Sequence record: OR896821.1
From: Escherichia phage Phagiculus
DNA: 46,458 nucleotides
Strand: one strand, 5' to 3'
A program made the translations under genes and the position numbers. This document shows, piece by piece, positions 4,526-39,272 of the stretch. Within the stretch, counting starts at the first letter, position 1; every line of letters begins with the position of its first letter. Below the pieces are notes generated by a model that was not told the origin of the DNA, searched no databases, and saw only the letters and a list, made by a program, of their open reading frames with translations.

Positions 4526-4552
4526 ACAAAAAAGACCCCTAAGGGTCTTTGC
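4526..4552 (-). terminator. intrinsic terminator after major tail protein gene
   Basis: minus strand AGACCC-TTAG-GGGTCT followed by TTTTTT. Confidence 0.6.
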
Positions 4553-4564
4553 AAAAAGTGCTAT

Positions 4565-7193: not shown

Positions 7194-7255
7194 TTCAATC
7201 TCCTTTGTTATCTGTTAGTGGTGATTATAACTCATCGTTTTGGTTTCGTACAGAC

Positions 7256-7278
7256 GTAAAAAAGCCCTCCTAAGAGGG
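7256..7278 (-). terminator. intrinsic terminator after major capsid gene
   Basis: minus strand GCCCTC-TTAG-GAGGGC followed by TTTTTT; shares 22-nt element with 15635..15656. Confidence 0.6.
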
Positions 7279-7285
7279 CGATTTA

Positions 7286-8233
7286 TTAAGGGTAGGTAAT
7301 ACCCTTCAGTACAGATACGGTCAGCGGACGGTAGATAACCAGACCAGTAGACTTAGAAGTAACCGGATATTTAAAATGAAGGTCCTTAGGCTGACCCGGC
7401 AGCACATTGGTCGCTTCCGGAATCTCAATGCTGAGGTTCAGCGGATCTTTTTCAAACGCCAGTGCTGCTTTACCGCCCGCGCCATCGTAGTTATCCAGGA
7501 ACTGAAGGTAACGGATGGTAAGGCCAGGGTTGTTACGAGTAAACAGTTCACCATAACTAATGGTAGTACCAGCAACCAGGCCCTGCATTACTCGACGAGC
7601 GGATGCCGGAAGAATGATGTCAGTTACATGGTGAATGCCCTGGGTTGCAATTTCAACAGAATCAATCATTGAAGTAATATCATCAACCGCGTTCTTGGCA
7701 TCAGTCCAGCCACTTGCATTAGCAGTAATCTGGTTGACGTTAGGCGCGTTGAATACGCTGGTAATGCCATGAGGCGTAGAGCCTTGCCAAACCAGTTTAT
7801 CAAGCAGGTTGTCGTGAGCTTCAAATGCCAGCGCCTGTTTGCGAGATTGCAGAGGCTGACCAGTTGCAGCGCCAGCTTTGATTTCATCAACGGACACCAG
7901 GAAGGCGTTACCGAATCGGAAAACTTTGCCCTGCTTCTCAGTCATGAAAGCATCAACCAGCGGCAGGTCATCAGAGTAATCAGCGATAATCTGAGCGATA
8001 CCTACGCCATCGAATTCCGGGTATTCAAAGTATTTTGCGTGGCTTGGGATTTCGTTACTTACAGGGAAGATATTAACAACGGAGTTATCCGGGTATTCTT
8101 TCTCGTAGTTACGCTTGAGGGTTTCGGTAAGCTGCTTGACGGTCCAGATACCAGCCGCATCAGCCTTTTCGACGCCCATTTGCTCGAGGTGAGCCGTGAT
8201 TTTAGCCTGTTCGGCGTCTAACTTAATAGCCAT
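7286..8233 (-). CDS. major capsid protein
   Basis: 315 aa, position after scaffold/decoration genes, own sigma70-like promoter and strong terminator. Confidence 0.65.
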   Translation of the reverse strand: MAIKLDAEQAKITAHLEQMGVEKADAAGIWTVKQLTETLKRNYEKEYPDNSVVNIFPVSNEIPSHAKYFEYPEFDGVGIAQIIADYSDDLPLVDAFMTEKQGKVFRFGNAFLVSVDEIKAGAATGQPLQSRKQALAFEAHDNLLDKLVWQGSTPHGITSVFNAPNVNQITANASGWTDAKNAVDDITSMIDSVEIATQGIHHVTDIILPASARRVMQGLVAGTTISYGELFTRNNPGLTIRYLQFLDNYDGAGGKAALAFEKDPLNLSIEIPEATNVLPGQPKDLHFKYPVTSKSTGLVIYRPLTVSVLKGITYP

Positions 8234-8268
8234 TTTATCATCCTTTTAGTTAACAAGTTTACGAGTTC

Positions 8269-8296
8269 ATTATACACGAGTTTTAAGCCCGCGCAA
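8269..8296 (-). promoter_or_regulatory. sigma70-like promoter upstream of major capsid gene
   Basis: minus strand TTGCGC - 16 nt - TATAAT, 29 nt leader with AAGGA RBS. Confidence 0.4.
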
Positions 8297-8311
8297 TGGC
8301 GGGCATTAATC

Positions 8312-9853
8312 TTATGGCAGCTTGAATGTCTCAATCCTAATTGCGATGTTAAAACTAGTATCAGCTGGGCGCTGAAGGTGAAAAACATCAATCATTATAA
8401 TGTTTTTATCTCCCCAATCTCTAGCTGAGAATTGAATTCTTTTATATCCCCCACCAGTATAACCCGCAGGATCACCTACAACATACCTGCTAGTTCCTGC
8501 AATTGTGTGGTTTGACTGATATCTCTTAACTACGTCAGCGGATGGAAAGTTTACAACCTCAACATCAAAATACCTTCCTGCAATTGAGTTGCCTACAAAA
8601 GAGTACTCAATGTTATTCCCAACCCTTCTTACTGAAAAAGAGATGCCAGGGTTGTTTGGTATAGCTATAGCTGAGTAGCTTGTCGATACGGTAAGTTGAG
8701 TTGTATAAACTGGATTGTTTGTATTATTTTGACCTGCTGGACCCTGTGGGCCGGTTGCGCCAGTTTCGCCTTTTTCTCCTTTGTCGCCCTTTTCGCCCCT
8801 CTCTCCCTGTGGTCCTTGTGGCCCCACCGCTCCAGCAACGCCTCTAATGCCTTGCGGCCCTTGAATACCCTGAGGTCCAGTATCACCTTTTGGCCCTTGA
8901 GGACCGGCTGGTCCAGTAATACCCTGCAATCCTTGATCACCTTTTGGCCCCTGTTCACCTGGTAAACCTTGAATACCTTGCTGGCCCTGAACCCCTCTTG
9001 GACCCTGCTGTCCTGTTTCTCCTTTTTCACCTTGAGGGCCGATATCACCAGGGTCGCCTTTTTCACCCTTATCACCCTTCGTCCCCTGAGCGGCAAGAAC
9101 AACCCACAGAGGTGATACTCCAGGTTCCTCATCTTCTGCAATGTTGCTAACTGCGAAGTAGGTTGAGCCACCGTAAACTACGGTATCATCTTTTGCATAA
9201 CCAGTATCAGGAACCCATTGCCCACGGAATGTTAAACCAGCAGGCCCGACTTCGCCAGGATCACCTTTCTCACCAGTATCACCTTTTAATCCTTGCGGAC
9301 CTTGTGGGCCGATATCACCCCTATCTCCCTTGTCGCCTTTCAAGCCTGCTGGGCCTTGAATTCCCTGTGGACCTTGAATACCTTGAGGGCCAATTGGTCC
9401 TTGTGGACCTACCGCACCACGCTCACCTTTTTCCCCATCAGCGCCATCGTCACCCTTTGGACCCTGCGGACCCTCTGGTCCAACTTCCCCTCGTGGACCT
9501 TGAGGACCTTGCGGACCAGCCATTCCATCCCTGCCAGATGTTCCCTGAAACCCTTTAGTTAACGCAACTGCAAACTGATTTGACTCGGATGAAGGTTCGC
9601 CAAAAACCTCCCAACCTTCGTGAGTGATTTCGTTTACTCTATCAATTAGCTTTTGGCGACTGGTTGCACTCAGAACCATGAAGTCGGTAATATCTGCGTT
9701 AGTTCCCTTAGCTACAACCATGCCAATAGTGTTAGAGCCAGTGCCTGTTAATACTCTATCAAATGGCTGCCAACCTTCTGCAATTGCCTCTAGCACCTTG
9801 CGGCTAAGTGATGCCGTGTTACCAGCAAGGATTTGCCTAAATTCTAAAGCCAT
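8312..9853 (-). CDS. collagen-like repeat protein with embedded CBM5/12 (ChtBD3)-like segment
   Basis: two long Gly-X-Y runs (GPQGPQGPRGEVGPEGPQGPKGDDG... and GDKGEKGDPGDIGPQGEKG...) separated by WVPDTGYAKDDTVVYGGSTYFAV...PLW; non-collagen N- and C-terminal domains. Confidence 0.8.
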   Translation of the reverse strand: MALEFRQILAGNTASLSRKVLEAIAEGWQPFDRVLTGTGSNTIGMVVAKGTNADITDFMVLSATSRQKLIDRVNEITHEGWEVFGEPSSESNQFAVALTKGFQGTSGRDGMAGPQGPQGPRGEVGPEGPQGPKGDDGADGEKGERGAVGPQGPIGPQGIQGPQGIQGPAGLKGDKGDRGDIGPQGPQGLKGDTGEKGDPGEVGPAGLTFRGQWVPDTGYAKDDTVVYGGSTYFAVSNIAEDEEPGVSPLWVVLAAQGTKGDKGEKGDPGDIGPQGEKGETGQQGPRGVQGQQGIQGLPGEQGPKGDQGLQGITGPAGPQGPKGDTGPQGIQGPQGIRGVAGAVGPQGPQGERGEKGDKGEKGETGATGPQGPAGQNNTNNPVYTTQLTVSTSYSAIAIPNNPGISFSVRRVGNNIEYSFVGNSIAGRYFDVEVVNFPSADVVKRYQSNHTIAGTSRYVVGDPAGYTGGGYKRIQFSARDWGDKNIIMIDVFHLQRPADTSFNIAIRIETFKLP

Positions 9854-9936: not shown

Positions 9937-10470
9937 TTAAAGAACCTTTACGCACAGTGTCTTGCCTGAAATGGTTTCACTCCTCAGTTTGCCAACTACA
10001 ACTGACGCCCTCATCTTTGTCCAGTCATCTGGAATCTTGTAGTAATCATAATATTTCTGGAGAGTGTAATCGTAACCCGTCCCAGAGAAAACAAGGTCAT
10101 CTGATGTGAAGTCATCCGATACAGATAAGTTTGAGATTATAACCTCGCCATCTTCAAGATGTTGATCAAGGATGTTCATGTATGACTCGGCGTACTGGTT
10201 TTCAAGCTGGGATCTGTCAATATTAACCGATAGGAGCCTAAATCTATCATAATTTAAAACTGATTTGCGGTTTGATAGAGTTACACTAGCCACCGACACC
10301 GACTCGGTAATAGCCTTAGTTCTTGCGTTAAATGATAATCCGTGATTAATTGAAAAGTTAGAATTTGATGAAGCGTCAGCTGTCGATGTATATCCTGATG
10401 CTGATAATTCATGAAAGAAAGAATTCATCTCACCAACACTAGAGAATGATACCGATATTTTCTTATACAA
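9937..10470 (-). CDS. hypothetical protein (177 aa), TTG start
   Basis: AAGGAG RBS 7 nt before TTG at 10470; bracketed by terminators. Confidence 0.5.
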   Translation of the reverse strand: MYKKISVSFSSVGEMNSFFHELSASGYTSTADASSNSNFSINHGLSFNARTKAITESVSVASVTLSNRKSVLNYDRFRLLSVNIDRSQLENQYAESYMNILDQHLEDGEVIISNLSVSDDFTSDDLVFSGTGYDYTLQKYYDYYKIPDDWTKMRASVVVGKLRSETISGKTLCVKVL

Positions 10471-10512: not shown

Positions 10513-11040
10513 TTAAGCAGTAGCTAATGCTGAATCTGCGGATTGAATCAGCTGAACTTCAACGATTGCACCATCGTAGCTTTCGCCTTGTTTAATTGGG
10601 TCGCTACCGTTGTTAGCATAAGCCGAAGCATAGCCACCAGCAAATGTAAAACCAGTTTCCCAAGTAGTGTCTGCCGCTTTAGCAACAACAACACCACTTG
10701 CGTTAACGAAAACCTTGCTACCAAAATCTGGTGCACTTGCTAGAGTAGTACGAACCCAGATACGACCATGAGTCATTACGTTAACCGCTTCATTTACGCG
10801 AGCAGTTCCGTCTGGAGTCTCGTAGTGGGATTTAACAACAACACCATAAGGTTTAACTGGTGTGCCAGTAACGACTGGAAGACCAACAACCTTGTGACCA
10901 TCTACAGGCTGAGCTGAGGTAACGCCAACAAAAGTGCCAACTGGAATTGCAGCAGTACCACCAACCACACAAGCACCATCAATATTATACAGGGAAGTAT
11001 CAGCTACCATGCCTGCCAGAGCTACGGAACGAATTGCCAT
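10513..11040 (-). CDS. head decoration/cement-like protein
   Basis: 175 aa Gly/Val/Ala-rich protein after scaffold gene; AAGGAG RBS. Confidence 0.4.
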   Translation of the reverse strand: MAIRSVALAGMVADTSLYNIDGACVVGGTAAIPVGTFVGVTSAQPVDGHKVVGLPVVTGTPVKPYGVVVKSHYETPDGTARVNEAVNVMTHGRIWVRTTLASAPDFGSKVFVNASGVVVAKAADTTWETGFTFAGGYASAYANNGSDPIKQGESYDGAIVEVQLIQSADSALATA

Positions 11041-11050
11041 TTAGGACTCC

Positions 11051-12154
11051 TTATTTTTTCAATTTAGCGAGGCGAGCTCGCGGGTCTAATTTCTTAGGCG
11101 CGTCGGCTGCATCGGATTTGTCAACGCCATCTACTTTAGCGCGTACTTCAGCCATTTTATCAGACTCTTTGGCGATATCAAAGGCTGCATCGATGTATGC
11201 ATCAGATTTCTCAGACACATTCAGGCCGGAAACCTCTTTAACGTAAGCAACTTTAATTTGCTTAGCGTCGAGTCCGTCACACTTAATGCCAACTTCGGTA
11301 GCTTTAGCAACCAGGTCAGCCATTACGGCGGAATCAGCTTTAAACTTCTCAATGGCTGCTTCGATTTCTTTATCCATGCCATCAACTTTAGCTTTCAGCA
11401 TATCCCGCTCTGCGGTGATGCCTTCAATCTTTTCTTTTGTATCTTTGGCATCTGCTTTGATAGCTTCGATGTGTGCCGCAACTTCTGGGGCGATTTCAAA
11501 CTCCTGTGCGCCATCCAGTTTAATTTTAACCATTTCTGAATCCTCTTTAGTTAATTGAACGTCATCATTATATGGGTTTTCTTGCTCACCGTCCAGATTA
11601 AGTTTGGCGACACCTGCGCGACCTTTATGGACTAGCGCGATATGATTCACTAAGATGTTAGTCTGAAGCGCGTCAAAGCGGACCCAATCAGAAGGGATTT
11701 CTTCCTGACTGGCATAATCACCATCCAGTTTATACTCTCCAGTCTCATTACTACCCCAGCCGCCAGTATTAACATCAACCGTGCTGTAACCTACTGACAA
11801 TTCGCCAGCATCTCCAGATTTAGCCTTTTCGATAGCCTCCTTGTCGTAAATTGTCAAAGGAACTACCACGTTAGAATCCTGACGCTGACCAACACCATTT
11901 ACAGAACCAACCACAGTCTCCTTTGCGTTGTCAGGGCTCACAAACACGTGACCTAAGGTTAGCGGCTTGCCCATATACGATTCCAGTGAATCGCTTTTAA
12001 AGACCTCTGAAGCAGGGCGAAATTCACGACGAACTCCACCATCTGCTGTTGCGTACTCCTGCACTCCGACACGCGCAACTACGGGCGTGTCGACCAGGAA
12101 TCCGTTTTCATCGAAGCGGGCCTTAACCCGCGCTGTATCGAAACGAATTGCCAT
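11051..12154 (-). CDS. capsid scaffolding protein (DUF2213-like N-terminus plus K/E/A/D-rich coiled-coil C-terminus)
   Basis: composition and position between portal and capsid genes. Confidence 0.5.
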   Translation of the reverse strand: MAIRFDTARVKARFDENGFLVDTPVVARVGVQEYATADGGVRREFRPASEVFKSDSLESYMGKPLTLGHVFVSPDNAKETVVGSVNGVGQRQDSNVVVPLTIYDKEAIEKAKSGDAGELSVGYSTVDVNTGGWGSNETGEYKLDGDYASQEEIPSDWVRFDALQTNILVNHIALVHKGRAGVAKLNLDGEQENPYNDDVQLTKEDSEMVKIKLDGAQEFEIAPEVAAHIEAIKADAKDTKEKIEGITAERDMLKAKVDGMDKEIEAAIEKFKADSAVMADLVAKATEVGIKCDGLDAKQIKVAYVKEVSGLNVSEKSDAYIDAAFDIAKESDKMAEVRAKVDGVDKSDAADAPKKLDPRARLAKLKK

Positions 12155-12192: not shown

Positions 12193-13464
12193 TTAGATGA
12201 TTACCTCCTCTTCCGTAACCTGCGGCACAGCTTCTTGCTGCTCTACGTCACCATCAGTCAACTTAACTTCTGGCGCGATAACACGAATTGTATCACGAGC
12301 CTCGTTAACATTCATAACGCCAGCTGCAATTAATGCAGAAAGAGATTCAACGTTAGACCTCATCACTTCTGCCTTCTGTTCGTTGCTAGGCTGGTTTAGT
12401 GGGTTAAAGTCGATTGACCATTCTTGCTCTGTTACGATGAACGGTATTAAGAACTCAAGAATAGGCAGCAAATCAGCCTTTCGTTTACGGTCTACCAGTT
12501 TGTGGAATGTCTCAAGTGCCGTGTTCTGGCTAGATGAAACGCCGCCAACGTTCTTGGCCTTCAGTACAATTTCATGAATACCACTCAGGGCAACGATTCG
12601 GTCGAACTTAGCTGAAAGTAAATCCGTAACGCCAGAAGTTGAAGCTGTTAGTACGCTGTAATCCTCTGATTCCGCATCAATGCCAATCGTATTCGCCACG
12701 CCGCCATTGCTATCAACCTGAGCTAGTCGCAACCTTGCAGCTGCCACACCTTCAGAATCATCACAGATTTCAGCCAAACCCTTGACCTTCCATACTCCCT
12801 GCTGGCTACGCTTCATTAACTGAGTTGCATAGCTTTCGCACTGCTGGTAGTCCTGAATTGCATCAAGCAGGTCATTACTTAGTACTGTAGCACCCCAGCC
12901 ATCATTTTGTCGACGGAGTGTGTTAGGTACGCGCTCGCCATCGATGATATGAATGCGAGTATAGTGCACATCATAGAAAGTATCAGAGTCACCAGTAGTA
13001 ATTCGGTAGGTAACTGGCTTGCCAAAGCGTGAATTGCGCGGATTTTCCTCGCGTGTTTGAATCCTGACTTGCTGGCGATCATAAACCCTTACAGATTCCA
13101 GTTCTGCACCTTCACGAACCGGCTTAGTCAGGTCTCGATTGTCTCGGACGATTGCTACGATAGCCGAGCCGCCGAATAACCTGGCCCATGACCATGCATC
13201 AGTTATTGAATCTGATAGGTCAAGCTCATCCCAGCGCGACCAGAATGCGTCTTCATTCTCAATGCCGTCAATGTGAAACCCAGCACCAAGCCCTTCCTCT
13301 GGAATTACGTCGACAATGCGGCGAACTAGTGCGTTGTTTACGTATGCAGACTGTAATATAGCAGGAATACCAATACCAACAGAGCCAAACCGTCCAAAAA
13401 TCTCACTACCTGTACCTAAAGTGCCATCACCAAAGGTGTTTGCATAAGAATCAGCCTTTACCAT
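12193..13464 (-). CDS. portal protein
   Basis: about 420 aa, immediately downstream of terminase large subunit; GGAG RBS before ATG at 13464. Confidence 0.55.
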   Translation of the reverse strand: MVKADSYANTFGDGTLGTGSEIFGRFGSVGIGIPAILQSAYVNNALVRRIVDVIPEEGLGAGFHIDGIENEDAFWSRWDELDLSDSITDAWSWARLFGGSAIVAIVRDNRDLTKPVREGAELESVRVYDRQQVRIQTREENPRNSRFGKPVTYRITTGDSDTFYDVHYTRIHIIDGERVPNTLRRQNDGWGATVLSNDLLDAIQDYQQCESYATQLMKRSQQGVWKVKGLAEICDDSEGVAAARLRLAQVDSNGGVANTIGIDAESEDYSVLTASTSGVTDLLSAKFDRIVALSGIHEIVLKAKNVGGVSSSQNTALETFHKLVDRKRKADLLPILEFLIPFIVTEQEWSIDFNPLNQPSNEQKAEVMRSNVESLSALIAAGVMNVNEARDTIRVIAPEVKLTDGDVEQQEAVPQVTEEEVII

Positions 13465-13514
13465 GTGTTTCTCCAATAAAAAAGCCCCCATATAGAAGGC
13501 TAGTTTAGCACGGT

Positions 13515-15083
13515 TTATCTAATTCCAGCTAGTCGCTTCAGAGCTGCTTTAGGGTCATCTGCGAGGTTAAGTTCACAGTTGATAGCCATTGTTGTGGTAT
13601 CCACGATGTCATCATGAAGGTGACTGTCGTCAGCAGTGAATGCAGCAAACTCAGCAAGGAATGCAGGCAACCAGGGCGCAGACTCTGGCAAAATAACGTT
13701 ACCAGCCTTAATCTGAGGTAATGCACTCATTACTCGCGTAAGTTTGTCGCTGTCCGGAACAAACGGCTCTATAGGTGTTCTCATCGTTCTGCTTGCTGAC
13801 TGAATCAGTCCGATGCCAGACGCCTTCTTCTCGATGATAACTTTGCGAAGGATTCCGTCAATCTTATTCATTGAGCGGGCCTTAGCTTCAAACTCGACGA
13901 GAGTAGCCTCAAGTTCAGGCGCTTCCCATTTGCCGCGAACCATGTCAAGTAAGTAAGCCTTACGGTCCTTAACTCCCCACAGCTGGAATACGGAGAAGTC
14001 GCTATAGCTCTTAGTAGTCATCGCAGTGTCAGCCGTGATAAATCGGTAATCGTACTTAGCTGGAGGTCTGTTGTTCTCATCAATTCGAGCAAACCAGTCT
14101 ACGTTAACCAGGTTTCCACCTAGAGCCACTGGCTCCTGCTGGTACTGACTCATGAATGTGTAGTGGTCAGAGTCCATCATAGACACCAGGTCGTGAACAG
14201 ATTCCTTTTTAGGGAAGTAGCTATAATACTTCACGCCATCGCGTTCAACATATTCGCTTGATAGCACGTCATCAATGAATTGCTGCTTAATCCAATCAGG
14301 CAATGTATCGACGTAATCTTCAGTAACTAGCGCAGGAATCTTAACCACATCGAAGTCTATACCCATACCACCAGAAGTCATGAACCAAGTTGAGTCGTTC
14401 ACGTGCAAGCGCTGCTGGATGGAAAGAATTGGCGTGGCCTTACCTTTTACCGAACTTGCACGACGAGAGCGAACGGTGTTTTTAAGAAGCGTATGAACAG
14501 CCTCTCTGCGAACCTTGCTAAACATGTCGTCTGCTTTATCAATATCATCCAGCATTAAACAGCCGCTATAATTATCAGTGATATATCCCCCGCGAGCGCC
14601 AATTATCTGACCGCCAATCGCCTTAGAGATGGACTCAAACCTGACCTTTCCAGACTCATCAAGAACCTGAATCTCATCATCCTTGCATGTTCCAAACTTA
14701 GACGGGAATAACTCCTGGAACTCAGTTGACTTAATCAGGTCACGCACCCGCTTTGAGTTACGCTTCACCAGACTATCCGAGAACGATAAGTTAAGGTTCC
14801 TAACCTTTTGTAGCTTGAGCATTGAGTAGACTGGAAAGTGGATTGAAGTAATCTCAGTCTTACCAGCACCAGGCGCTACGTTAATGATTGTATCTTTGCG
14901 CTCGCCACTGATTACCTCGTCGATGATTCTGCAAAGGTACTTGTGATGCCAGTTGGGGATATAGCGTTCGCCCTGTGTTAGCTGAAACCACACCCGAAGG
15001 AATGCCTCGAAGTTGTGAGTGGATAAAGCTTTAACTGCCAGCTTTTCGGCTGGCGTCATATCTTCCCAAACTAGTGTATTCAT
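13515..15083 (-). CDS. terminase large subunit
   Basis: Walker A VAPGAGKTE; 522 aa; ATGA overlap with upstream small gene. Confidence 0.85.
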   Translation of the reverse strand: MNTLVWEDMTPAEKLAVKALSTHNFEAFLRVWFQLTQGERYIPNWHHKYLCRIIDEVISGERKDTIINVAPGAGKTEITSIHFPVYSMLKLQKVRNLNLSFSDSLVKRNSKRVRDLIKSTEFQELFPSKFGTCKDDEIQVLDESGKVRFESISKAIGGQIIGARGGYITDNYSGCLMLDDIDKADDMFSKVRREAVHTLLKNTVRSRRASSVKGKATPILSIQQRLHVNDSTWFMTSGGMGIDFDVVKIPALVTEDYVDTLPDWIKQQFIDDVLSSEYVERDGVKYYSYFPKKESVHDLVSMMDSDHYTFMSQYQQEPVALGGNLVNVDWFARIDENNRPPAKYDYRFITADTAMTTKSYSDFSVFQLWGVKDRKAYLLDMVRGKWEAPELEATLVEFEAKARSMNKIDGILRKVIIEKKASGIGLIQSASRTMRTPIEPFVPDSDKLTRVMSALPQIKAGNVILPESAPWLPAFLAEFAAFTADDSHLHDDIVDTTTMAINCELNLADDPKAALKRLAGIR

Positions 15084-15595
15084 AGCTTATCCATAATTGA
15101 TTCAAGTGCGGCCTTCATAACTTCTTCATCGTTAACAACAGCACTAGATGCGTTGTTGATGTTAACTTCTTGAGGCTTGTCGATACCTAAGTCTTTACCA
15201 ATCAGACTAGAGTTAACGATGTTATTCACACCCAGCTGATACTTCTGCTCAAAGATGACTGAATCTACAAACTCCATAACTTCAGAGAAGCCAGGGGATG
15301 AGCGCCAGTGGCTAATGGCATTTCCCGTAACCCCGCAAAATAATTGGAATCCGTTAATGGTGAAAACTCGCGGCTTATGAATAAGGTTCTCAGTAACAAT
15401 CCCCTGATGAGATGCAGTTTCAATAGCCTTAATTGCCTGGCTCTCTGCCCAAGTGAAATACCTTACCGCCATATCAAACAATTGCTCTGGCGTGAACTTG
15501 TGGTTAATCTTCAGGTTAGCAATATCTCCGTACTTCTTGTTGTAAAGCTCCTTGAAGTTACCAATCTTCTGGTGAATCTTCTTCTCTTCTTGCAT
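15080..15595 (-). CDS. terminase small subunit (putative)
   Basis: 171-aa ORF translationally coupled to terL; AAGGAGG RBS before ATG at 15595. Confidence 0.45.
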   Translation of the reverse strand: MQEEKKIHQKIGNFKELYNKKYGDIANLKINHKFTPEQLFDMAVRYFTWAESQAIKAIETASHQGIVTENLIHKPRVFTINGFQLFCGVTGNAISHWRSSPGFSEVMEFVDSVIFEQKYQLGVNNIVNSSLIGKDLGIDKPQEVNINNASSAVVNDEEVMKAALESIMDKL

Positions 15596-15643
15596 GCGAT
15601 ATTCCTCCTTTGTTGAAGGCCATTGTACCACAGCTACAGACGT

Positions 15644-15665
15644 AAAAAAGCCCTCCGAAGAGGGC
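15644..15665 (-). terminator. intrinsic terminator upstream of terS
   Basis: minus strand GCCCTC-TTCG-GAGGGC followed by TTTTTT. Confidence 0.6.
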
Positions 15666-15688
15666 GAAAGGTACAACAACGAGAGAGA

Positions 15689-17089: not shown

Positions 17090-17132
17090 ATAGTACCGCA
17101 TCCTTGCGATTGATGTTTAGCAATTCGTGCTA
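17090..17132 (-). promoter_or_regulatory. conserved promoter module (IR TAGCAC-N3-TTGCTA plus -10-like)
   Basis: plus-strand tagcaattcgtgcta at 17118..17132; minus-strand TACTAT 22 nt downstream; leader ATTGAAACGA. Confidence 0.55.
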
Positions 17133-17450
17133 TTTGCTCCAGTTATCCAGGTAATAACTATTGCTTACTACATGCTGAATCTTAGAGTAATCTCGATACT
17201 TATCAATAATCTCCTGAACGTGAGCGCCTCGCTGCTCATGGAACTCTACAGCCTTCTGAAGCGATACAATGGCCTCATTAATGTCAGTAGTATAATCCTT
17301 GTGTCGAGTGCGAATGCCGCTGCACAGAACCTTCTTTATGGCGTGCTGCAGTGCCGGGTCTGTTACTCCAAATGCTGCGATTACTCGATATACATCCACG
17401 GTAGTCTTGGTGCCATCAAGACCAATAATTTCTTTGTTGTACTTACTCAT
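17130..17450 (-). CDS. hypothetical protein (106 aa)
   Basis: ORF in early block. Confidence 0.55.
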   Translation of the reverse strand: MSKYNKEIIGLDGTKTTVDVYRVIAAFGVTDPALQHAIKKVLCSGIRTRHKDYTTDINEAIVSLQKAVEFHEQRGAHVQEIIDKYRDYSKIQHVVSNSYYLDNWSK

Positions 17451-18021: not shown

Positions 18022-18064
18022 ATTATATGTAATGCCATCCGTGGCGTCTTAGCAATTCGTGCTA
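18022..18064 (-). promoter_or_regulatory. conserved promoter module
   Basis: tagcaattcgtgcta at 18050..18064; minus-strand TATAAT at 18027..18022. Confidence 0.55.
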
Positions 18065-18078
18065 TTTCCCAATCAGGA

Positions 18079-18576: not shown

Positions 18577-19014
18577 GTCTTTCCCCTCTCGTTAAGTTAC
18601 ATCCATAATATAGCGGACTTATATACGTGTCAATAGCTGTGAAAAAAAATAGACATTGCATGTTTTTACGCTTTAGCCCATGAGAGCCCCGCCACTGCTG
18701 ACTGTGAATCGCTGTGCACAATGTAGATAGAATCCCGCCGGACCCCCTATATATATCTATATCCTTTCGGAGATATGAATATACATCATTGAGAGGAAAC
18801 ATATGGGTATCACCATTATGGCTATCTACACTATTTACATAACAATATTATAATAATAATAATAACTCTAAGTTGTTTATATATATAGATATTTTATTGT
18901 AACTAGCTGTAAATTTACGCGGATTGCGTAGATAAATTCCCGCGCGCGCATTTTTGTCTATAGCTTTAACTTCGTTTACGCGTATCGCATATAGATGAAG
19001 AAATTTAGCCGCAA

Positions 19015-19170: not shown

Positions 19171-19178
19171 CTAACGAA

Positions 19179-19222
19179 TAGCACTTTTTGCTAAAGACGA
19201 AACCACCATGATTGGGTATAGT
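19179..19222 (+). promoter_or_regulatory. conserved promoter module
   Basis: tagcactttttgcta then aagacg then TATAGT at 19217..19222; leader CCATCGAAACGAA. Confidence 0.6.
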
Positions 19223-19675: not shown

Positions 19676-19676
19676 A

Positions 19677-19719
19677 TAGCACTTTTTGTTAAAACAGGCA
19701 TTAAGAAAACGAGTATAGT
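19677..19719 (+). promoter_or_regulatory. conserved promoter module
   Basis: tagcactttttgtta, aaacag, TATAGT at 19714..19719. Confidence 0.55.
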
Positions 19720-20542: not shown

Positions 20543-20766
20543 TTCATGAACTAAAGATATTACCAGTACATTTTGATCCGGTAGATACTGGCCTTAAGCT
20601 GGCAGAGCTAAGAAAAAATGACAGAAATTTTTCTGTTGGTGATAAGTTGATACTCAAAGAGTTCCACGATGGTGCTTATACCGGAAGGATTACAATAAAA
20701 GAGGTATTACATATAGCTGATGTTTCCGAATATCTTCCAGGGTATGTTTTACTCTCAATGTATTAA
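20539..20766 (+). CDS. ASCH/DUF3850-like small protein
   Basis: MIHELKILPVHFDPV...LRKNDRNFSVGD pattern typical of the DUF3850 family. Confidence 0.45.
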   Translation: MIHELKILPVHFDPVDTGLKLAELRKNDRNFSVGDKLILKEFHDGAYTGRITIKEVLHIADVSEYLPGYVLLSMY

Positions 20767-20810
20767 TAGCACTTTTTGCTAATGACATTACCCGCCTCGG
20801 CGGGTATATT
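20767..20810 (+). promoter_or_regulatory. conserved promoter module
   Basis: tagcactttttgcta, -35-like ATGACA, TATATT; hairpin CCGCCTCGGCGG in spacer. Confidence 0.55.
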
Positions 20811-20842
20811 TATATCCATCGACAACGAAATAGAGAAATAAG

Positions 20843-25020: not shown

Positions 25021-25063
25021 ATAATATCAGGTTTTTACTTTGTGTCTTTAGCAATTCGTGCTT
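25021..25063 (-). promoter_or_regulatory. conserved promoter module
   Basis: tagcaattcgtgctt (one mismatch); minus-strand TATTAT at 25026..25021; leader ATCGAAAACGAGAGAGG. Confidence 0.5.
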
Positions 25064-25205
25064 TTTCTAATGCTTCTTGAACTTCTTCAAAACTAGCAAT
25101 CAGCAAGCAAGCCATTACATTCTCATCAAATACTCGCCAACCTTTCCCGCTATATGCCGCTATGGTGTCGTGGTCGAAATAATTAATCTCGCTAGGTTTT
25201 AACAT
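25035..25205 (-). CDS. hypothetical protein (56 aa)
   Basis: internal ATG at 25205 adjacent to upstream stop. Confidence 0.4.
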   Translation of the reverse strand: MLKPSEINYFDHDTIAAYSGKGWRVFDENVMACLLIASFEEVQEALEKARIAKDTK

Positions 25206-25463: not shown

Positions 25464-25507
25464 AATATAGCGCCTTTCGGCGCTATAGTCTTTAGCAAAA
25501 AGTGCTA
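25464..25507 (-). promoter_or_regulatory. conserved promoter module with hairpin in spacer
   Basis: tagcaaaaagtgcta at 25493..25507; ATAGCGCC-TTTC-GGCGCTAT hairpin; TATATT. Confidence 0.5.
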
Positions 25508-26644
25508 CTTAGTGAACATTTTAGGACGGCAGATGAATCGACCAACCTCGCCAAACTCTTTATGATAAATAATTACCGCAGCCTGACGCTGTGAACGCCA
25601 GCCTCCATTTGCACTGTATGCGTCAGGAGAGCCAAGCTGACCGTGAACCTCGTCAATACCCAAGTTAGTCTCTGTAATCTTCTGTGAGTGCCAGTGCCCT
25701 GAGTGGGTGTAAACATAATCACTAACACCAAAATCACGTCGCCAATCAGTAGCCATAACAGTCAATCGCGTTTCGGCTTTCCGCATCTGGTGGCCGTGAG
25801 TGTATCCAATCAAAGTAGAGCCAAACTTAGTAACCATCATAGCCGCGGGGCTTACGTCAACCGTGACTCGAGGCTCATCCTCATAGAATGCAGCAAGAGC
25901 GGCGCGAAGCCAAACCATACCAGATTCGTCGTGGTTGCCAGAAATTGTTTTAATATCAATAGTTTGGTGCTTCTCAAGCATCTTACGAATAGCTCGACGA
26001 ACAGACCTAATACAAACATAAACAATCTTAGCATAACGGCTGTCGCTGTCTAAAATATGACCGCTTGCAGGTGTCTTAGCCTCAAGTGAATCATAGTGAA
26101 TCAAGTCACCACCAAGTACAAGTACGGCATTCTTTGAGTTCGGCGCTTCATTTACAGCATAATCAAAGAAGTCATTCATTACCTTTTCTGCGGTTGCCGT
26201 GTCGTAGTTTTCACCACACTCATGCTTGTGAGCCATAGCGCCAATATGAAGGTCAAATACAGGGTACATAGCCAAAGTGTTTTCATCAAAAACTTTACCC
26301 TTAACTTCAACTGGTTCTTCTTTAGGTAACTCGGAGCAGAAAGCCTCTCGAGCTTGCTCCATCAACTGCTCAAGTCGCTCATTGTCAACGCTAGTCTTGA
26401 CCCACCGAATCTTCTCATTTCCTTCTGCGTCAATCATGGTTGATGTTCCCTTCACCATGTAACCATCTGGAACAAGCTTCTTAATGCCAGGATTTCCATG
26501 CAACTCACCAGCCTTAGCCAGCTTACTACGACGCAATTCAACATTGCGAATATTCATACCGTACTTCTCTGCGATTGCCTTGTTAGTCATTCCGTTCGCC
26601 AGTTCTTCACGAAGCTGTTCGTTGCTGATTTTTGCAGTTGCCAT
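25505..26644 (-). CDS. metallophosphoesterase (Mre11/SbcD-like) with N-terminal HTH
   Basis: FDLHIG, GGDLIH, GNHDE, GHWH motifs; N-terminal GMTNKAIAEKYGMNIRNVELRRSKL. Confidence 0.7.
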   Translation of the reverse strand: MATAKISNEQLREELANGMTNKAIAEKYGMNIRNVELRRSKLAKAGELHGNPGIKKLVPDGYMVKGTSTMIDAEGNEKIRWVKTSVDNERLEQLMEQAREAFCSELPKEEPVEVKGKVFDENTLAMYPVFDLHIGAMAHKHECGENYDTATAEKVMNDFFDYAVNEAPNSKNAVLVLGGDLIHYDSLEAKTPASGHILDSDSRYAKIVYVCIRSVRRAIRKMLEKHQTIDIKTISGNHDESGMVWLRAALAAFYEDEPRVTVDVSPAAMMVTKFGSTLIGYTHGHQMRKAETRLTVMATDWRRDFGVSDYVYTHSGHWHSQKITETNLGIDEVHGQLGSPDAYSANGGWRSQRQAAVIIYHKEFGEVGRFICRPKMFTK

Positions 26645-27345: not shown

Positions 27346-27584
27346 TAATGCAACTCCTCGCACTCAAAGCTAAAAATAATCATGTCGTTATAATCAGTAA
27401 GGTAATACGAAGTGCCATCAAGTGACTTTTCAGCCTCGAAGACTTTTGCATCTCCCTTACTTTCAGTGAGGTAATACGAAGTGCCATCAAATGATTTTTC
27501 AGCCTCGAATACTCTTGTACCTCCCTTACTTTCAATCCACCTTGATAGTGCCATTGTTGGGTTTGTGATTACTATTTTCATCAT
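27345..27584 (-). CDS. hypothetical protein with internal 23-aa tandem repeat
   Basis: VFEAEKSFDGTSYYLTE / VFEAEKSLDGTSYYLTD. Confidence 0.5.
   Translation of the reverse strand: MMKIVITNPTMALSRWIESKGGTRVFEAEKSFDGTSYYLTESKGDAKVFEAEKSLDGTSYYLTDYNDMIIFSFECEELH
27397..27536. repeat. 69-bp tandem duplication (2 copies, near-identical) inside CDS
   Basis: ggtaatacgaagtgccatcaa...cctcgaa...cccttactttca repeated with period 69. Confidence 0.8.
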
Positions 27585-28032: not shown

Positions 28033-28075
28033 ATAATACATCACTTCTCCGATTCGTCTTTAGCAATTAGTGCTA
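28033..28075 (-). promoter_or_regulatory. conserved promoter module
   Basis: tagcaattagtgcta at 28061..28075; aagacg; minus-strand TATTAT at 28038..28033; leader CATCGAAACGAAACG. Confidence 0.6.
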
Positions 28076-28450
28076 TTTTGATAAGTAATCCTCAATCGCC
28101 AGCTTAAACATTTCAAAACCGTAACAGATAGCTGCGTAACCTCCTGTTTCTGATACCTTTTCTAGGAAATCCTTTTGCTCCTTTGAAACCTTGCTATCTG
28201 ATTTTATTGCGCGCTTAAGTTCGATTGCCGCGAATCCATTTGGTCCAATCAGCAAGATATCTGAAACTCCCTTGATTACACCTTCCTGCTTATCCTTGAC
28301 GGCAGTTCCAATTGACTTCAGGCCTTCATTCTTGACGTGAAAGGCAAATATCTCAGGGTGGTTATGACGCACCCAAGCAATCGAATTAACCTGGTGAACA
28401 ACCTCTTTAGCTTTATCCGTGCTTGTCTTGTCGTGAAATACTTTAATCAT
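28073..28450 (-). CDS. VRR-NUC domain nuclease
   Basis: GVSDILLIGPNGFAAIELK D...E.K pattern; AAGGAG RBS before ATG at 28450. Confidence 0.5.
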   Translation of the reverse strand: MIKVFHDKTSTDKAKEVVHQVNSIAWVRHNHPEIFAFHVKNEGLKSIGTAVKDKQEGVIKGVSDILLIGPNGFAAIELKRAIKSDSKVSKEQKDFLEKVSETGGYAAICYGFEMFKLAIEDYLSK

Positions 28451-30422: not shown

Positions 30423-30459
30423 ACACGACAAGCGAAAACACTTTTAGCAAAAAATGCTA
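30418..30459 (-). promoter_or_regulatory. conserved promoter module (divergent with 30395..30422)
   Basis: tagcaaaaaatgcta at 30445..30459; minus-strand TATTAT at 30423..30418. Confidence 0.5.
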
Positions 30460-30469
30460 TCGAGGTTAA

Positions 30470-35921: not shown

Positions 35922-35964
35922 ACTATACACCATCGATTTAATCCTGTTTTAGCTATTCGTGCTA
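35922..35964 (-). promoter_or_regulatory. conserved promoter module
   Basis: tagctattcgtgcta (one mismatch); minus-strand TATAGT at 35927..35922; leader CCTAATCGACAAAAAAGAGAGA. Confidence 0.5.
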
Positions 35965-35966
35965 TA

Positions 35967-38651: not shown

Positions 38652-38693
38652 ATATACCCGTTCAGAAGCATCCTGTTTTGACTAATCGTGCTA
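38652..38693 (-). promoter_or_regulatory. degenerate conserved promoter module
   Basis: tgactaatcgtgcta (half-site degenerate); aaacag; GTATAT; leader contains hairpin CTGCTCA-AATC-TGAGCAG. Confidence 0.35.
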
Positions 38694-38869
38694 TTTTGTA
38701 TACCAGCGTAAAACTATCCAATTTACAGATTCCCCCACCTGCAACACCGCCATCACTTGATGTAACCGATGTATATAGAGTAAACAAGAAAAAATCACCC
38801 ACATCTATATCTATAGATAAATGCAGGTATGTATATGCTCGTAAAAATGAAGATTATACGCCCATCGCC

Positions 38870-39272
38870 TCATGAGCCCGCACCAACACTGGATGTAACT
38901 CATGTAAACGCTGTAACAGTAGTTTTTGCGCCCCTATCTATATATCCATATGCATTTGGCAACACCAGAAACAGAACTTAGTCATTTCAAAAAAACATAT
39001 CAACACAACCATAGAAGGTAGTTACACTATATACAAACAAATATAGTAATAATAATAATTACTCTAAACCCTTATTATATAAGGATTCTTTAGTGTAACT
39101 AATGCGTATCTGCGCGTAAAAAGCGTATACAATTTCCCGCGGGTCAGGATTGCATACATCGATTTACATAGGTTACGCGTATATCAAATAGCACGATTTG
39201 CTAAAGACTGACTGAAGCACCTTTGGTATAGTTACTCCATCGAAACGAAAAACACTTAATAAGGATTCAAAA
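38870..39272. repeat. AT-rich control region B, paralogous to 18670..19260
   Basis: same ordered sequence blocks as region A, ending in conserved promoter module. Confidence 0.6.
39189..39232 (+). promoter_or_regulatory. conserved promoter module
   Basis: tagcacgatttgcta, aagact, TATAGT at 39227..39232; leader TACTCCATCGAAACGAA identical to the one at 19222..19250. Confidence 0.6.

What the first reader, a model, noticed from the sequence alone, without database searches (positions are those of the whole stretch)
8269..8296. Dedicated sigma70-like promoter for the major capsid gene inside the late operon
A TTGCGC - 16 bp - TATAAT element lies 30 nt upstream of the capsid start codon, overlapping a stem-loop that follows the collagen-like gene. 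An internal promoter could boost capsid protein stoichiometry independently of upstream readthrough.
Basis: seen in the sequence. Interest (0 to 1): 0.4.

Follow-up and report, generated by a model that had tools for sequence, protein, structure and literature searches.

The report
Conserved capsid-gene promoter in T1-like phage
The motif is real and is very probably a working host-type promoter placed directly in front of the major capsid gene, but the same element is found across the whole T1-like phage family and is already annotated as a predicted promoter in several relatives, so it is ordinary.

Summary
On the minus strand, TTGCGC (8296-8291), a 16-nt spacer and TATAAT (8274-8269) lie in the 78-nt gap between a collagen-like gene (8312-9853) and the major capsid gene (7286-8233). 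The -35 sits in the loop and 3' arm of a stable hairpin (8304-8287). The -10 ends 35 nt before the ATG, not 30.

The consensus match alone is not beyond chance. The site ranks 15th in the window, and shuffled sequence gives 23-40 equally good sites.

The evidence is comparative. TTGNNN-16-TANNNT lies just upstream of the capsid gene in 78 of 80 related Drexlerviridae loci, against 3.7% of control windows. The other two loci have a 17-nt spacer. This holds down to 48% capsid identity and whatever gene lies upstream. At least 64 of 80 loci also have a canonical terminator right after the capsid gene.

So the capsid gene is its own promoter-gene-terminator unit, the "transcripton" layout already proposed for T1. 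Predicted promoters are annotated at the homologous site in the T1, SU57 and AHS24 records. I found no transcription-start mapping for any T1-like phage.

The hairpin lacks a U-tract and shows modest covariation. It is more likely a 3' stem-loop or weak terminator of the upstream gene than a canonical terminator.

Verdict: real, supported, already known in kind, low interest.

The parts
8291..8296 (-). -35 hexamer TTGCGC (3 of 6 matches to TTGACA, the TTG being kept)
   Evidence: Read directly from the sequence. TTG at this position with a 16-nt spacing is invariant in all Rtp-like relatives and in 78 of 80 loci overall.
8275..8290 (-). 16-nt spacer GGGCTTAAAACTCGTG. There is no canonical extended -10, because the TG is one position off.
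   Evidence: The stretch AAAACTCGTG is invariant among 11 Rtp-like sequences but is replaced in the L004, L008-L010 and L013 lineages.
8269..8274 (-). -10 hexamer TATAAT (6 of 6)
   Evidence: It is invariant in all 15 Rtp-like sequences examined. T1-like relatives carry TATTAT, TATCAT, TATTCT or TATATT preceded by TGn.
8260..8262 (-). Predicted transcription start (G8262 to A8260), 7-9 nt after the -10, giving a 5' UTR of about 27-29 nt
   Evidence: Inference from the usual sigma-70 geometry. Not measured.
8241..8245 (-). Shine-Dalgarno AAGGA, 7 nt before the ATG
   Evidence: AAAAGGA is conserved in the Rtp-like relatives.
7286..8233 (-). Major capsid protein gene (315 aa)
   Evidence: Matches phrog_264 (E = 8e-89) and Pfam PF09950 (E = 8e-37).
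8287..8304 (-). Hairpin GCCCGC-CATTGC-GCGGGC overlapping the -35. Its 3' tail is UUAAAACUC, with no U-tract.
   Evidence: Free energy is -11.5 kcal/mol for the core and -13.2 with the UUAA/UUAA extension. The A-U/G-C covariation and a variant held by G.U pairs are. The MM01 record annotates it as an ARNold terminator.
7258..7279 (-). Canonical intrinsic terminator after the capsid gene: GCCCTC-TTAG-GAGGGC followed by UUUUUU
   Evidence: -12.4 kcal/mol. A hairpin with a T-run follows the capsid stop codon in at least 64 of 80 relatives.
8312..9853 (-). Upstream collagen-like gene (513 aa, with a DUF1737-like N-terminal region), occupying a variable slot
   Evidence: Pfam Collagen (E = 1e-36) and DUF1737 (E = 9e-7). 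The slot's content differs among relatives.

Best explanation
The element is most likely a functional promoter read by the host's sigma-70 RNA polymerase. It restarts transcription just ahead of the major capsid gene. Together with the strong intrinsic terminator right after that gene, it makes the capsid gene a short monocistronic unit inside the late gene array.

Transcription arriving from the upstream head genes has already passed two canonical terminators (10506-10493 and 9929-9916) and the stem-loop at 8304-8287. Without its own promoter, the protein needed in the most copies per virion would depend on leftover read-through.

The perfect -10, the retained TTG of the -35 and the 16-nt spacer predict a start near 8262-8260. 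The resulting leader of about 28 nt carries the ribosome-binding site.

The stem-loop written over the -35 lies upstream of that start, so it is absent from promoter-derived mRNA. It acts, if at all, only on transcripts of the collagen-like gene, as a 3'-end stabiliser or weak terminator.

What is shown: the sequence anatomy, the family-wide conservation, and the bracketing terminator. What is inferred: RNA polymerase use, the start site, promoter strength, timing, and the role of the hairpin.
For: Anatomy at the stated coordinates.

Conservation of the promoter:
- TTGNNN-16-TANNNT lies within 130 nt upstream of the capsid gene in 78 of 80 IMG/VR loci, against 140 of 3817 (3.7%) control windows of the same loci. 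There are 55 distinct sequences, with capsid identity down to 48%.
- The two exceptions carry TTGCAC-17-TATCAT.
- In Rtp-like lineages whose upstream gene and flanking sequence differ, the -35 changes in its last three bases (TTGCGC, TTGCGT, TTGCTA, TTGCCG, TTGATT). TTG, the spacing and TATAAT stay fixed. That is the pattern expected of a promoter rather than of an RNA structure.
- The element stays attached to the capsid gene whether the gene upstream is the cement protein, a collagen-like protein or another protein.

Terminators:
- A terminator with a U-tract follows the capsid gene in the window and in at least 64 of 80 loci.
- Canonical terminators lie upstream, at 10506-10493 and 9929-9916.

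Prior annotation and literature:
- A predicted promoter is annotated at the homologous place in T1 (15062-15089, before the capsid gene at 15140), in SU57, and in AHS24, AHP42 and AKS96.
- The TLS paper notes that T1-like phages encode no RNA polymerase or sigma factor. [quoted passage not shown]
Against: - No transcription start has been mapped for this or any related phage.
- The match to consensus is not better than chance by itself.
- The -35 is weak (3 of 6), the spacer is one base short of the optimum, and there is no canonical extended -10. Activity on bare sigma-70 holoenzyme could therefore be modest, or could depend on a factor.
- The prior annotations are software predictions. They disagree on the -35: the AHS24 record gives TTATCA with an N29 spacer.
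- Relatedness of the compared phages inflates the apparent conservation within the Rtp-like group.
Confidence: 0.75

Rival explanations
1. The promoter is real but is not a plain constitutive sigma-70 promoter. Its perfect -10 with a poor -35 would need a phage-encoded factor, or a late-infection state of the polymerase or template, so that it fires only late.
For: - The -35 matches at only 3 of 6 positions.
- The two neighbouring intergenic gaps also carry a perfect TATAAT with poor -35 regions, at 9903-9898 and 7229-7224. This suggests a class defined by the -10.
- The spacer AAAACTCGTG is more conserved among Rtp-like phages than sigma-70 requires.
- In T1-like relatives, the spacer of the capsid promoter carries the family's 18-21-nt repeat in reverse orientation.
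Against: - No sigma factor or RNA polymerase is known in T1-like phages (PMC11447400).
- TTG at -35 with fixed spacing is conserved, which argues that sigma region 4 still contacts it.
- The window's capsid promoter does not contain the repeat.
- Spacer conservation may only reflect recent common ancestry.
Confidence: 0.15
2. There is no promoter. The conserved block is a feature of a polycistronic late mRNA, such as a processing site or translation-control leader for the capsid gene, and the hexamers only resemble a promoter.
For: - The segment from the -10 to the ATG is very highly conserved among Rtp-like phages, more than the region upstream of the -35.
- The consensus match alone is at chance level.
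Against: - The conserved positions are exactly TTG and TAnnnT at a fixed 16-17-nt spacing, while the spacer sequence is replaced in several lineages. RNA elements do not predict this pattern.
- There is no significant fold: the z-score for the region is -1.5.
- No Rfam family matches here.
- Canonical terminators upstream would leave little read-through to process.
Confidence: 0.07
3. The main functional element is the hairpin, acting as an intrinsic terminator of the collagen-like gene as annotated in MM01. The overlapping hexamers are incidental.
For: - The stem is stable and GC-rich, at -11.5 to -13.2 kcal/mol.
- ARNold called it a terminator in MM01.
- One pair covaries, A-U in 6 sequences and G-C in 4. 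UDF157lw keeps the stem through two G.U pairs, which work only in RNA of this strand.
Against: - There is no U-tract: the tail is UUAAAACUC, and its UUAA pairs back to an upstream UUAA.
- The 5' arm is missing or reduced in Rtp, L007 and CEB_EC3a, yet their TTGCGT-16-TATAAT is intact.
- Lineages with other hairpins place them beside the -35, not over it (L004, L013).
- The two roles are not exclusive, so this rival can explain only the hairpin, not the conserved hexamers.
Confidence: 0.03

Closest known systems
Predicted promoter upstream of the major capsid gene of coliphage T1 (AY216660, feature 15062-15089) and the T1 'transcripton' layout
   Same: - The position is the same, immediately 5' of the orthologous capsid gene.
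- The hexamers are of the same kind with the same 16-nt spacing: TTGACG-16-TATTAT in T1.
- The capsid gene is followed by a terminator.
- An auxiliary decoration-type gene sits just upstream.
- The TLS paper describes the T1 late region as modules flanked by terminators with RpoD-dependent promoters.
   Different: - T1 has a better -35 (5 of 6), an extended -10 (TGc), an A-rich stretch upstream, and the family repeat in reverse orientation in its spacer.
- In T1 the hairpin with its U-tract lies downstream of the -10. In the window the hairpin lies over the -35 and has no U-tract.
- The T1 feature is a software prediction (PePPER) and has not been mapped.
Predicted promoters in Rtp-like phages SU57 (BPROM) and AHS24, AHP42 and AKS96
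   Same: The element is homologous, with the same CCATTGCG(C/T)GG..AAAACTCGTGTATAAT sequence 36-38 nt before the capsid ATG.
   Different: - SU57 has no collagen-like gene upstream and has a separate canonical terminator before the promoter.
- The AHS24 annotators chose a different, implausible -35 (N29 spacer).
- The window's closest relative for this region, MM01, annotates only the hairpin, as a terminator.
Phage T7 gene 10: phi10 promoter, capsid gene, T-phi terminator (from general knowledge, not tested here)
   Same: The logic is the same: the most abundant virion protein gets its own strong promoter just upstream and a terminator just downstream within the late region.
   Different: T7 uses its own single-subunit RNA polymerase and a 23-bp phage promoter. 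Here the hexamers are of the host sigma-70 type.
Phage lambda late operon (from general knowledge)
   Same: Both are siphovirus head-tail gene arrays transcribed by host RNA polymerase.
   Different: Lambda uses one late promoter with Q antitermination, no internal promoters, and translational control of stoichiometry. The window shows alternating terminators and promoter-like sites.

Membership tests
Bacterial sigma-70 (RpoD) promoter | -10 hexamer close to TATAAT, with A at position 2 and T at position 6 | tested here: met
   TATAAT at 8274-8269, 6 of 6.
Bacterial sigma-70 (RpoD) promoter | -35 hexamer close to TTGACA | tested here: inconclusive
   TTGCGC matches at 3 of 6. The tool's scanner, which needs at least 4 of 6, does not list it. 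However, the TTG is invariant in relatives.
Bacterial sigma-70 (RpoD) promoter | Spacer of 16-18 nt | tested here: met
   16 nt in the window. 16 nt in 78 of 80 relatives and 17 nt in the other two.
Bacterial sigma-70 (RpoD) promoter | Intergenic, in sense orientation, at a workable distance from a start codon, and kept there in relatives | tested here: met
   35 nt from the -10 to the ATG in the window, and 36-51 nt in relatives. Found in 97.5% of loci against 3.7% of control windows.
Bacterial sigma-70 (RpoD) promoter | A primary transcript 5' end about 7 nt after the -10; binding and open-complex formation by the holoenzyme | not testable with these tools
   No start-site data for T1-like phages turned up in the paper library.
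Rho-independent (intrinsic) terminator (for the hairpin 8304-8287) | GC-rich stem-loop | tested here: met
   Six G-C/C-G pairs, -11.5 kcal/mol.
Rho-independent (intrinsic) terminator (for the hairpin 8304-8287) | U-rich tract directly after the stem | tested here: not met
   The tail is UUAAAACUC. By contrast, UUUUUU follows the stems at 7279-7264 and 9929-9916. The scanner flags the hairpin only on the opposite strand.
Drexlerviridae repeat-associated promoter class (repeat ATAGCACnnnTTGCTAAA about 20 nt before a -10) | Presence of the 18-21-nt repeat upstream of the -10 | tested here: not met
   There are 13 repeat sites in the window and none lies in 8234-8311. The capsid promoter therefore belongs to a repeat-less class.

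The most novel reading that the evidence does not exclude
The hairpin and the -35 form one dual-coded, co-evolving element. An RNA stem-loop that ends or insulates the mRNA of the variable auxiliary (collagen-like) gene is written over the -35 of the capsid promoter. The sixth base of the -35 is then fixed by RNA pairing (TTGCGC with GCCCGC, against TTGCGT with GCCCAC) rather than by sigma-70.

The capsid promoter would also belong to a second, repeat-less promoter class (perfect -10, weak -35), distinct from the 13 repeat-associated promoters. That would give the phage a two-class timing programme on an unmodified host polymerase.
Probability: 0.25. Interest if true: 0.35.

Novelty: already known. 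Interest (0 to 1): 0.15.

Why it matters
The practical value is for annotation and engineering. The analysis gives a well-supported promoter call and a predicted start site for the capsid gene of a Rogunavirinae-like phage whose closest relative for this region (MM01) annotates only a terminator there. It also shows that a promoter-capsid gene-terminator unit is a family-wide trait of Drexlerviridae. Because no T1-like phage has a mapped transcriptome, the comparative footprint here tells an experimenter exactly where to look. It does not change how phage late gene expression is understood.

Tried and rejected
- **Consensus scanning as evidence.** The tool's scanner misses the site and its hits are not enriched over shuffles. 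My weight-matrix scan ranks the site 15th, with 23-40 equally good sites in shuffles. I therefore did not use consensus match as support.
- **Repeated phage-specific promoter.** Searching the window for other copies of the 17-mer AAAACTCGTGTATAATG found only this one, allowing up to 3 mismatches.
- **Motif search in IMG/VR.** The 17-mer gave 39 stretches. Only 7 are Rtp-like genomes, and in all 7 the match lies just upstream of the capsid gene. The other 32 encode no capsid homologue and look like chance matches in a very large collection.
- **Extended -10.** The TG lies at -14/-13, one position off the canonical TGn, so I make no such claim.
- **Known RNA families.** Nothing matches at the feature.
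- **Fold of the whole intergenic region.** Not significant, z = -1.5.
- **Membership in the family's repeat-associated promoter class.** Rejected, because the repeat is absent here.
- **An antisense promoter opposite the T1-like capsid promoter.** The conserved TAACA(C/T)AAAAA block upstream of the -35 turned out to be the stop codon of the upstream gene followed by an A-tract. The antisense -10 candidates lack the final T.
- **Literature search for transcription-start data in T1-like phages.** Nothing found. The T1 genome paper (PMID 14972552) and the id I tried for the Rtp genome paper (PMC1367250) returned nothing.
- **The promoter-like site TAGAGA-18-TATAAT at 8423-8394.** It lies inside the collagen-like gene and is probably a chance match. 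I did not check its conservation.

Full report
**What the window is**

The window is a T1-like siphovirus genome of the family Drexlerviridae, nearest the Rogunavirinae.
- Its head-gene region is 94% identical to Escherichia phage vB_EcoS_MM01 and 88% identical to phage e4/1c.
- Over the first 24 kb, no phage record covers more than 40% of it, at about 78-82% identity.
- The structural genes run on the minus strand. In order they are terminase (13515-15083), portal (12193-13491), protease (11051-12154), cement/decoration protein (10513-11040), a 177-aa ORF (9937-10470), a collagen-like protein (8312-9853) and the major capsid protein (7286-8233).

**The observation**

Read on the minus strand, the 78-nt gap between the collagen-like gene and the capsid gene reads:

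TAA gattaat GCCCGC CATTGC GCGGGC ttaaaactcgtg TATAAT gaactcgtaaacttgttaactaAAAGGAtgataaa ATG

- The -35 TTGCGC is at 8296-8291, the spacer is 16 nt, and the -10 TATAAT is at 8274-8269.
- The -35 lies in the loop and 3' arm of the hairpin 8304-8287.
- The pattern is unique in the window.

**Is it more than chance?**

By consensus match alone it is not.
- The -35 has only 3 of 6 matches, so the built-in scanner does not list the site. That scanner's hits are in any case not enriched over shuffles.
- An approximate sigma-70 weight matrix ranks the site 15th in the window, while shuffled sequence gives 23-40 sites at least as good.

Position helps. Three of the nine sense-strand TATAAT hexamers in the 15.7-kb late region fall within its 579 intergenic nucleotides (P = 0.004).

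**Comparative evidence**

I collected 80 loci encoding relatives of the capsid protein, at 97% to 48% identity, and read the DNA upstream of each.
- TTGNNN-16-TANNNT occurs within 130 nt upstream of the capsid gene in 78 of 80 loci. The other two have TTGCAC-17-TATCAT.
- The same pattern occurs in 3.7% of control windows from the same loci.
- Among Rtp-like phages, TATAAT, TTG and the 16-nt spacing never change. The last three bases of the -35 do change (TTGCGC, TTGCGT, TTGCTA, TTGCCG, TTGATT). In some lineages the whole spacer and everything upstream also differ.
- The gene upstream differs too: the cement protein in Rtp and SU57, collagen-like proteins in the window, MM01, e4/1c and L013, and other proteins in L004 and L008-L010. 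T1 has an Ig-like decoration protein there.
- The element therefore travels with the capsid gene. Its conservation pattern is that of a promoter, not of an RNA structure or a coding remnant.
- T1-like relatives have a stronger version: TTGAC(C/G) or TTGCAC, 16 nt, then TGnTAT(T/C)AT, preceded by an A-tract.

**The other end of the unit**

- The capsid gene is followed by GCCCTC-TTAG-GAGGGC and UUUUUU at 7279-7258.
- With a strict perfect-stem test, 64 of 80 relatives have a hairpin with a T-run within 70 nt of the capsid stop codon.
- Upstream, canonical terminators follow the cement gene (10506-10493) and the 177-aa ORF (9929-9916).
- The capsid gene is thus bracketed as promoter-gene-terminator, downstream of sites that should already have reduced read-through.

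**The hairpin**

- It is stable, at -11.5 kcal/mol for the core and -13.2 with the flanking UUAA/UUAA pairs. Its tail is UUAAAACUC, so it fails the U-tract criterion of an intrinsic terminator. ARNold nevertheless called it a terminator in MM01.
- In an alignment of 11 Rtp-like sequences, 86% of cells are paired. One pair switches between A-U (6 sequences) and G-C (4 sequences). UDF157lw keeps six pairs through two G.U wobbles, which work only in sense-strand RNA.
- The sample is small and the sequences are related, so this is suggestive only.
- In Rtp, L007 and CEB_EC3a the outer 5' arm is gone and a separate canonical terminator lies upstream, yet the promoter is intact.
- I read the hairpin as a 3' stem-loop or weak terminator of the auxiliary gene's transcript that happens to overlap the -35. 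It lies upstream of the predicted start, so it is absent from promoter-derived capsid mRNA.

**What was already known**

- The T1 reference record annotates a promoter at 15062-15089, directly before its capsid gene. It is one of five promoters annotated in that genome.
- SU57 annotates a BPROM promoter at the homologous place.
- AHS24, AHP42 and AKS96 annotate a promoter using the same TATAAT (Niu et al. 2014, PMC4070988).
- The TLS paper (PMC11447400) states that T1-like phages encode no polymerase or sigma factor. [quoted passage not shown]
- All of these are predictions. I found no mapped transcription start for any T1-like phage.

**Mechanism proposed**

Host sigma-70 holoenzyme initiates near G8262-A8260 and reads through a leader of about 28 nt carrying AAGGA (8245-8241). 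It transcribes the capsid gene and stops at 7279-7258, giving an mRNA of about 1 kb. The conserved sequence architecture is shown. Initiation, strength and timing are inferred.

The weak -35, together with perfect -10 hexamers in the two neighbouring gaps (9903-9898 and 7229-7224; the latter is conserved in Rtp-like phages), leaves room for a factor-dependent or late-specific variant of this model.

**Verdict**

The feature is a homologue of promoters already predicted in sister phages, within an architecture already proposed for T1. Novelty: already known. Interest: low.

Noticed in passing
window 4547-4564(-), 17116-17133(-), 18048-18065(-), 19178-19195(+), 19676-19693(+), 20766-20783(+), 25047-25064(-), 25491-25508(-), 28059-28076(-), 30443-30460(-), 35948-35965(-), 38677-38694(-), 39188-39205(+): There are 13 copies of the Drexlerviridae repeat ATAGCACnnnTTGCTAAA, against 2.2 expected by chance. 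Each contains the dyad TAGCA-N5-TGCTA. Every copy is followed 19-21 nt later by a TAnnnT hexamer (13 of 13, against a 12% background), then by a CATCGA(A/C)AACGA-like leader motif, a ribosome-binding site and an ATG. With the -10 hexamer at -12 to -7, the dyad centre falls near -42. The repeat therefore looks like the -35-region element, or a class-II-type activator site, of the phage's main promoter class. The TLS paper lists such repeats but leaves their role open (stoperator, enhancer or UP element).
   Followed up: partly
window 4564-4520(-), 25508-25460(-), 20766-20812(+): In three repeat-associated promoters, a terminator-like GC hairpin sits inside the stretch between the repeat and the -10. 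The T-run after the hairpin merges into the TATATT -10. Terminator and promoter are thus compressed into one overlapping module, analogous to the hairpin over the -35 at the capsid promoter.
   Followed up: no
L083 (T1) 15069-15086 and 15095-15121; TLS DR7 with T35; loci L014-L082: In T1-like phages the capsid promoter carries the family repeat in reverse orientation, filling the spacer and supplying the TGnTAT of the -10. In the TLS list, DR7 is on the opposite strand to the neighbouring late-region terminators, which are listed as 'pos'. A hairpin with a U-tract, annotated as a terminator, starts right after the -10, so the predicted start lies inside its 5' arm. It might stop only upstream transcripts, or act as a 5' stabilising stem-loop. 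A factor that binds the repeat would sit between -35 and -10 here and would repress the promoter.
   Followed up: partly
window 8312-9853(-); compare L083 14282-15049 and loci L004, L008-L010, L013: The slot between the cement/decoration gene and the capsid gene is variable. It holds a collagen-like protein here and in MM01, e4/1c, UDF157lw, AugustePiccard and L013, and an Ig-like decoration protein in T1. In L008-L010 it holds proteins that appear to share the N-terminal region (judged by eye), and it is empty in Rtp and SU57. The window's protein has a DUF1737-like N-terminal region. Its position suggests a head fibre or auxiliary decoration protein rather than the 'tail fiber' named in PHROGs and in the e4/1c record.
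   Followed up: partly
window 9936-9854(-) and 7285-7194(-): Two further terminator-then-TATAAT junctions flank the finding. The first is GCCTCCTTCGGGAGG, UUUUUU, then TATAAT (9903-9898), before the collagen-like gene. The second is the capsid terminator, then ACGTCTGTAC, 17 nt, then TATAAT (7229-7224), before the 81-aa gene. The second -10 is conserved in Rtp-like phages. The first decays to TATCAT or CGTCAT where no collagen gene follows.
   Followed up: partly
window 7249-7281 and 15635-15667: The terminator after the capsid gene, together with its ACGTCTGTA flank, has a 97%-identical second copy near the start of the small-terminase ORF (15080-15679). A terminator/promoter module appears to be reused at two places in the late region.
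   Followed up: no
window 8282-8276 and 8267-8261 (-): A 7-nt direct repeat, AACTCGT, flanks the -10 (AACTCGT-G-TATAAT-G-AACTCGT). It is exact in the window, MM01 and Rtp, and degenerate in other relatives (AATCCGT, AACCCGT). It could be chance or a small binding site.
   Followed up: no
window 27394-27531: A tandem duplication of a 69-nt unit, the two copies 90% identical.
   Followed up: no
window 18786-18905 and 38982-39101: A 120-nt dispersed direct repeat, 70% identical, lies in two regions that also hold repeat-associated promoters and high-scoring promoter-like sites (for example TTGACA-17-TATTAT at 18633-18605).
   Followed up: no
whole window: The genome is a mosaic. The head-gene region is 94% identical to MM01, but no phage record covers more than 40% of the first 24 kb, at about 78-82% identity. 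Sites scoring as good sigma-70 promoters are fewer than in mononucleotide shuffles (15 against 23-40 at the score of this site). This hints at avoidance of spurious promoters, but only 10 shuffles were run.
   Followed up: partly
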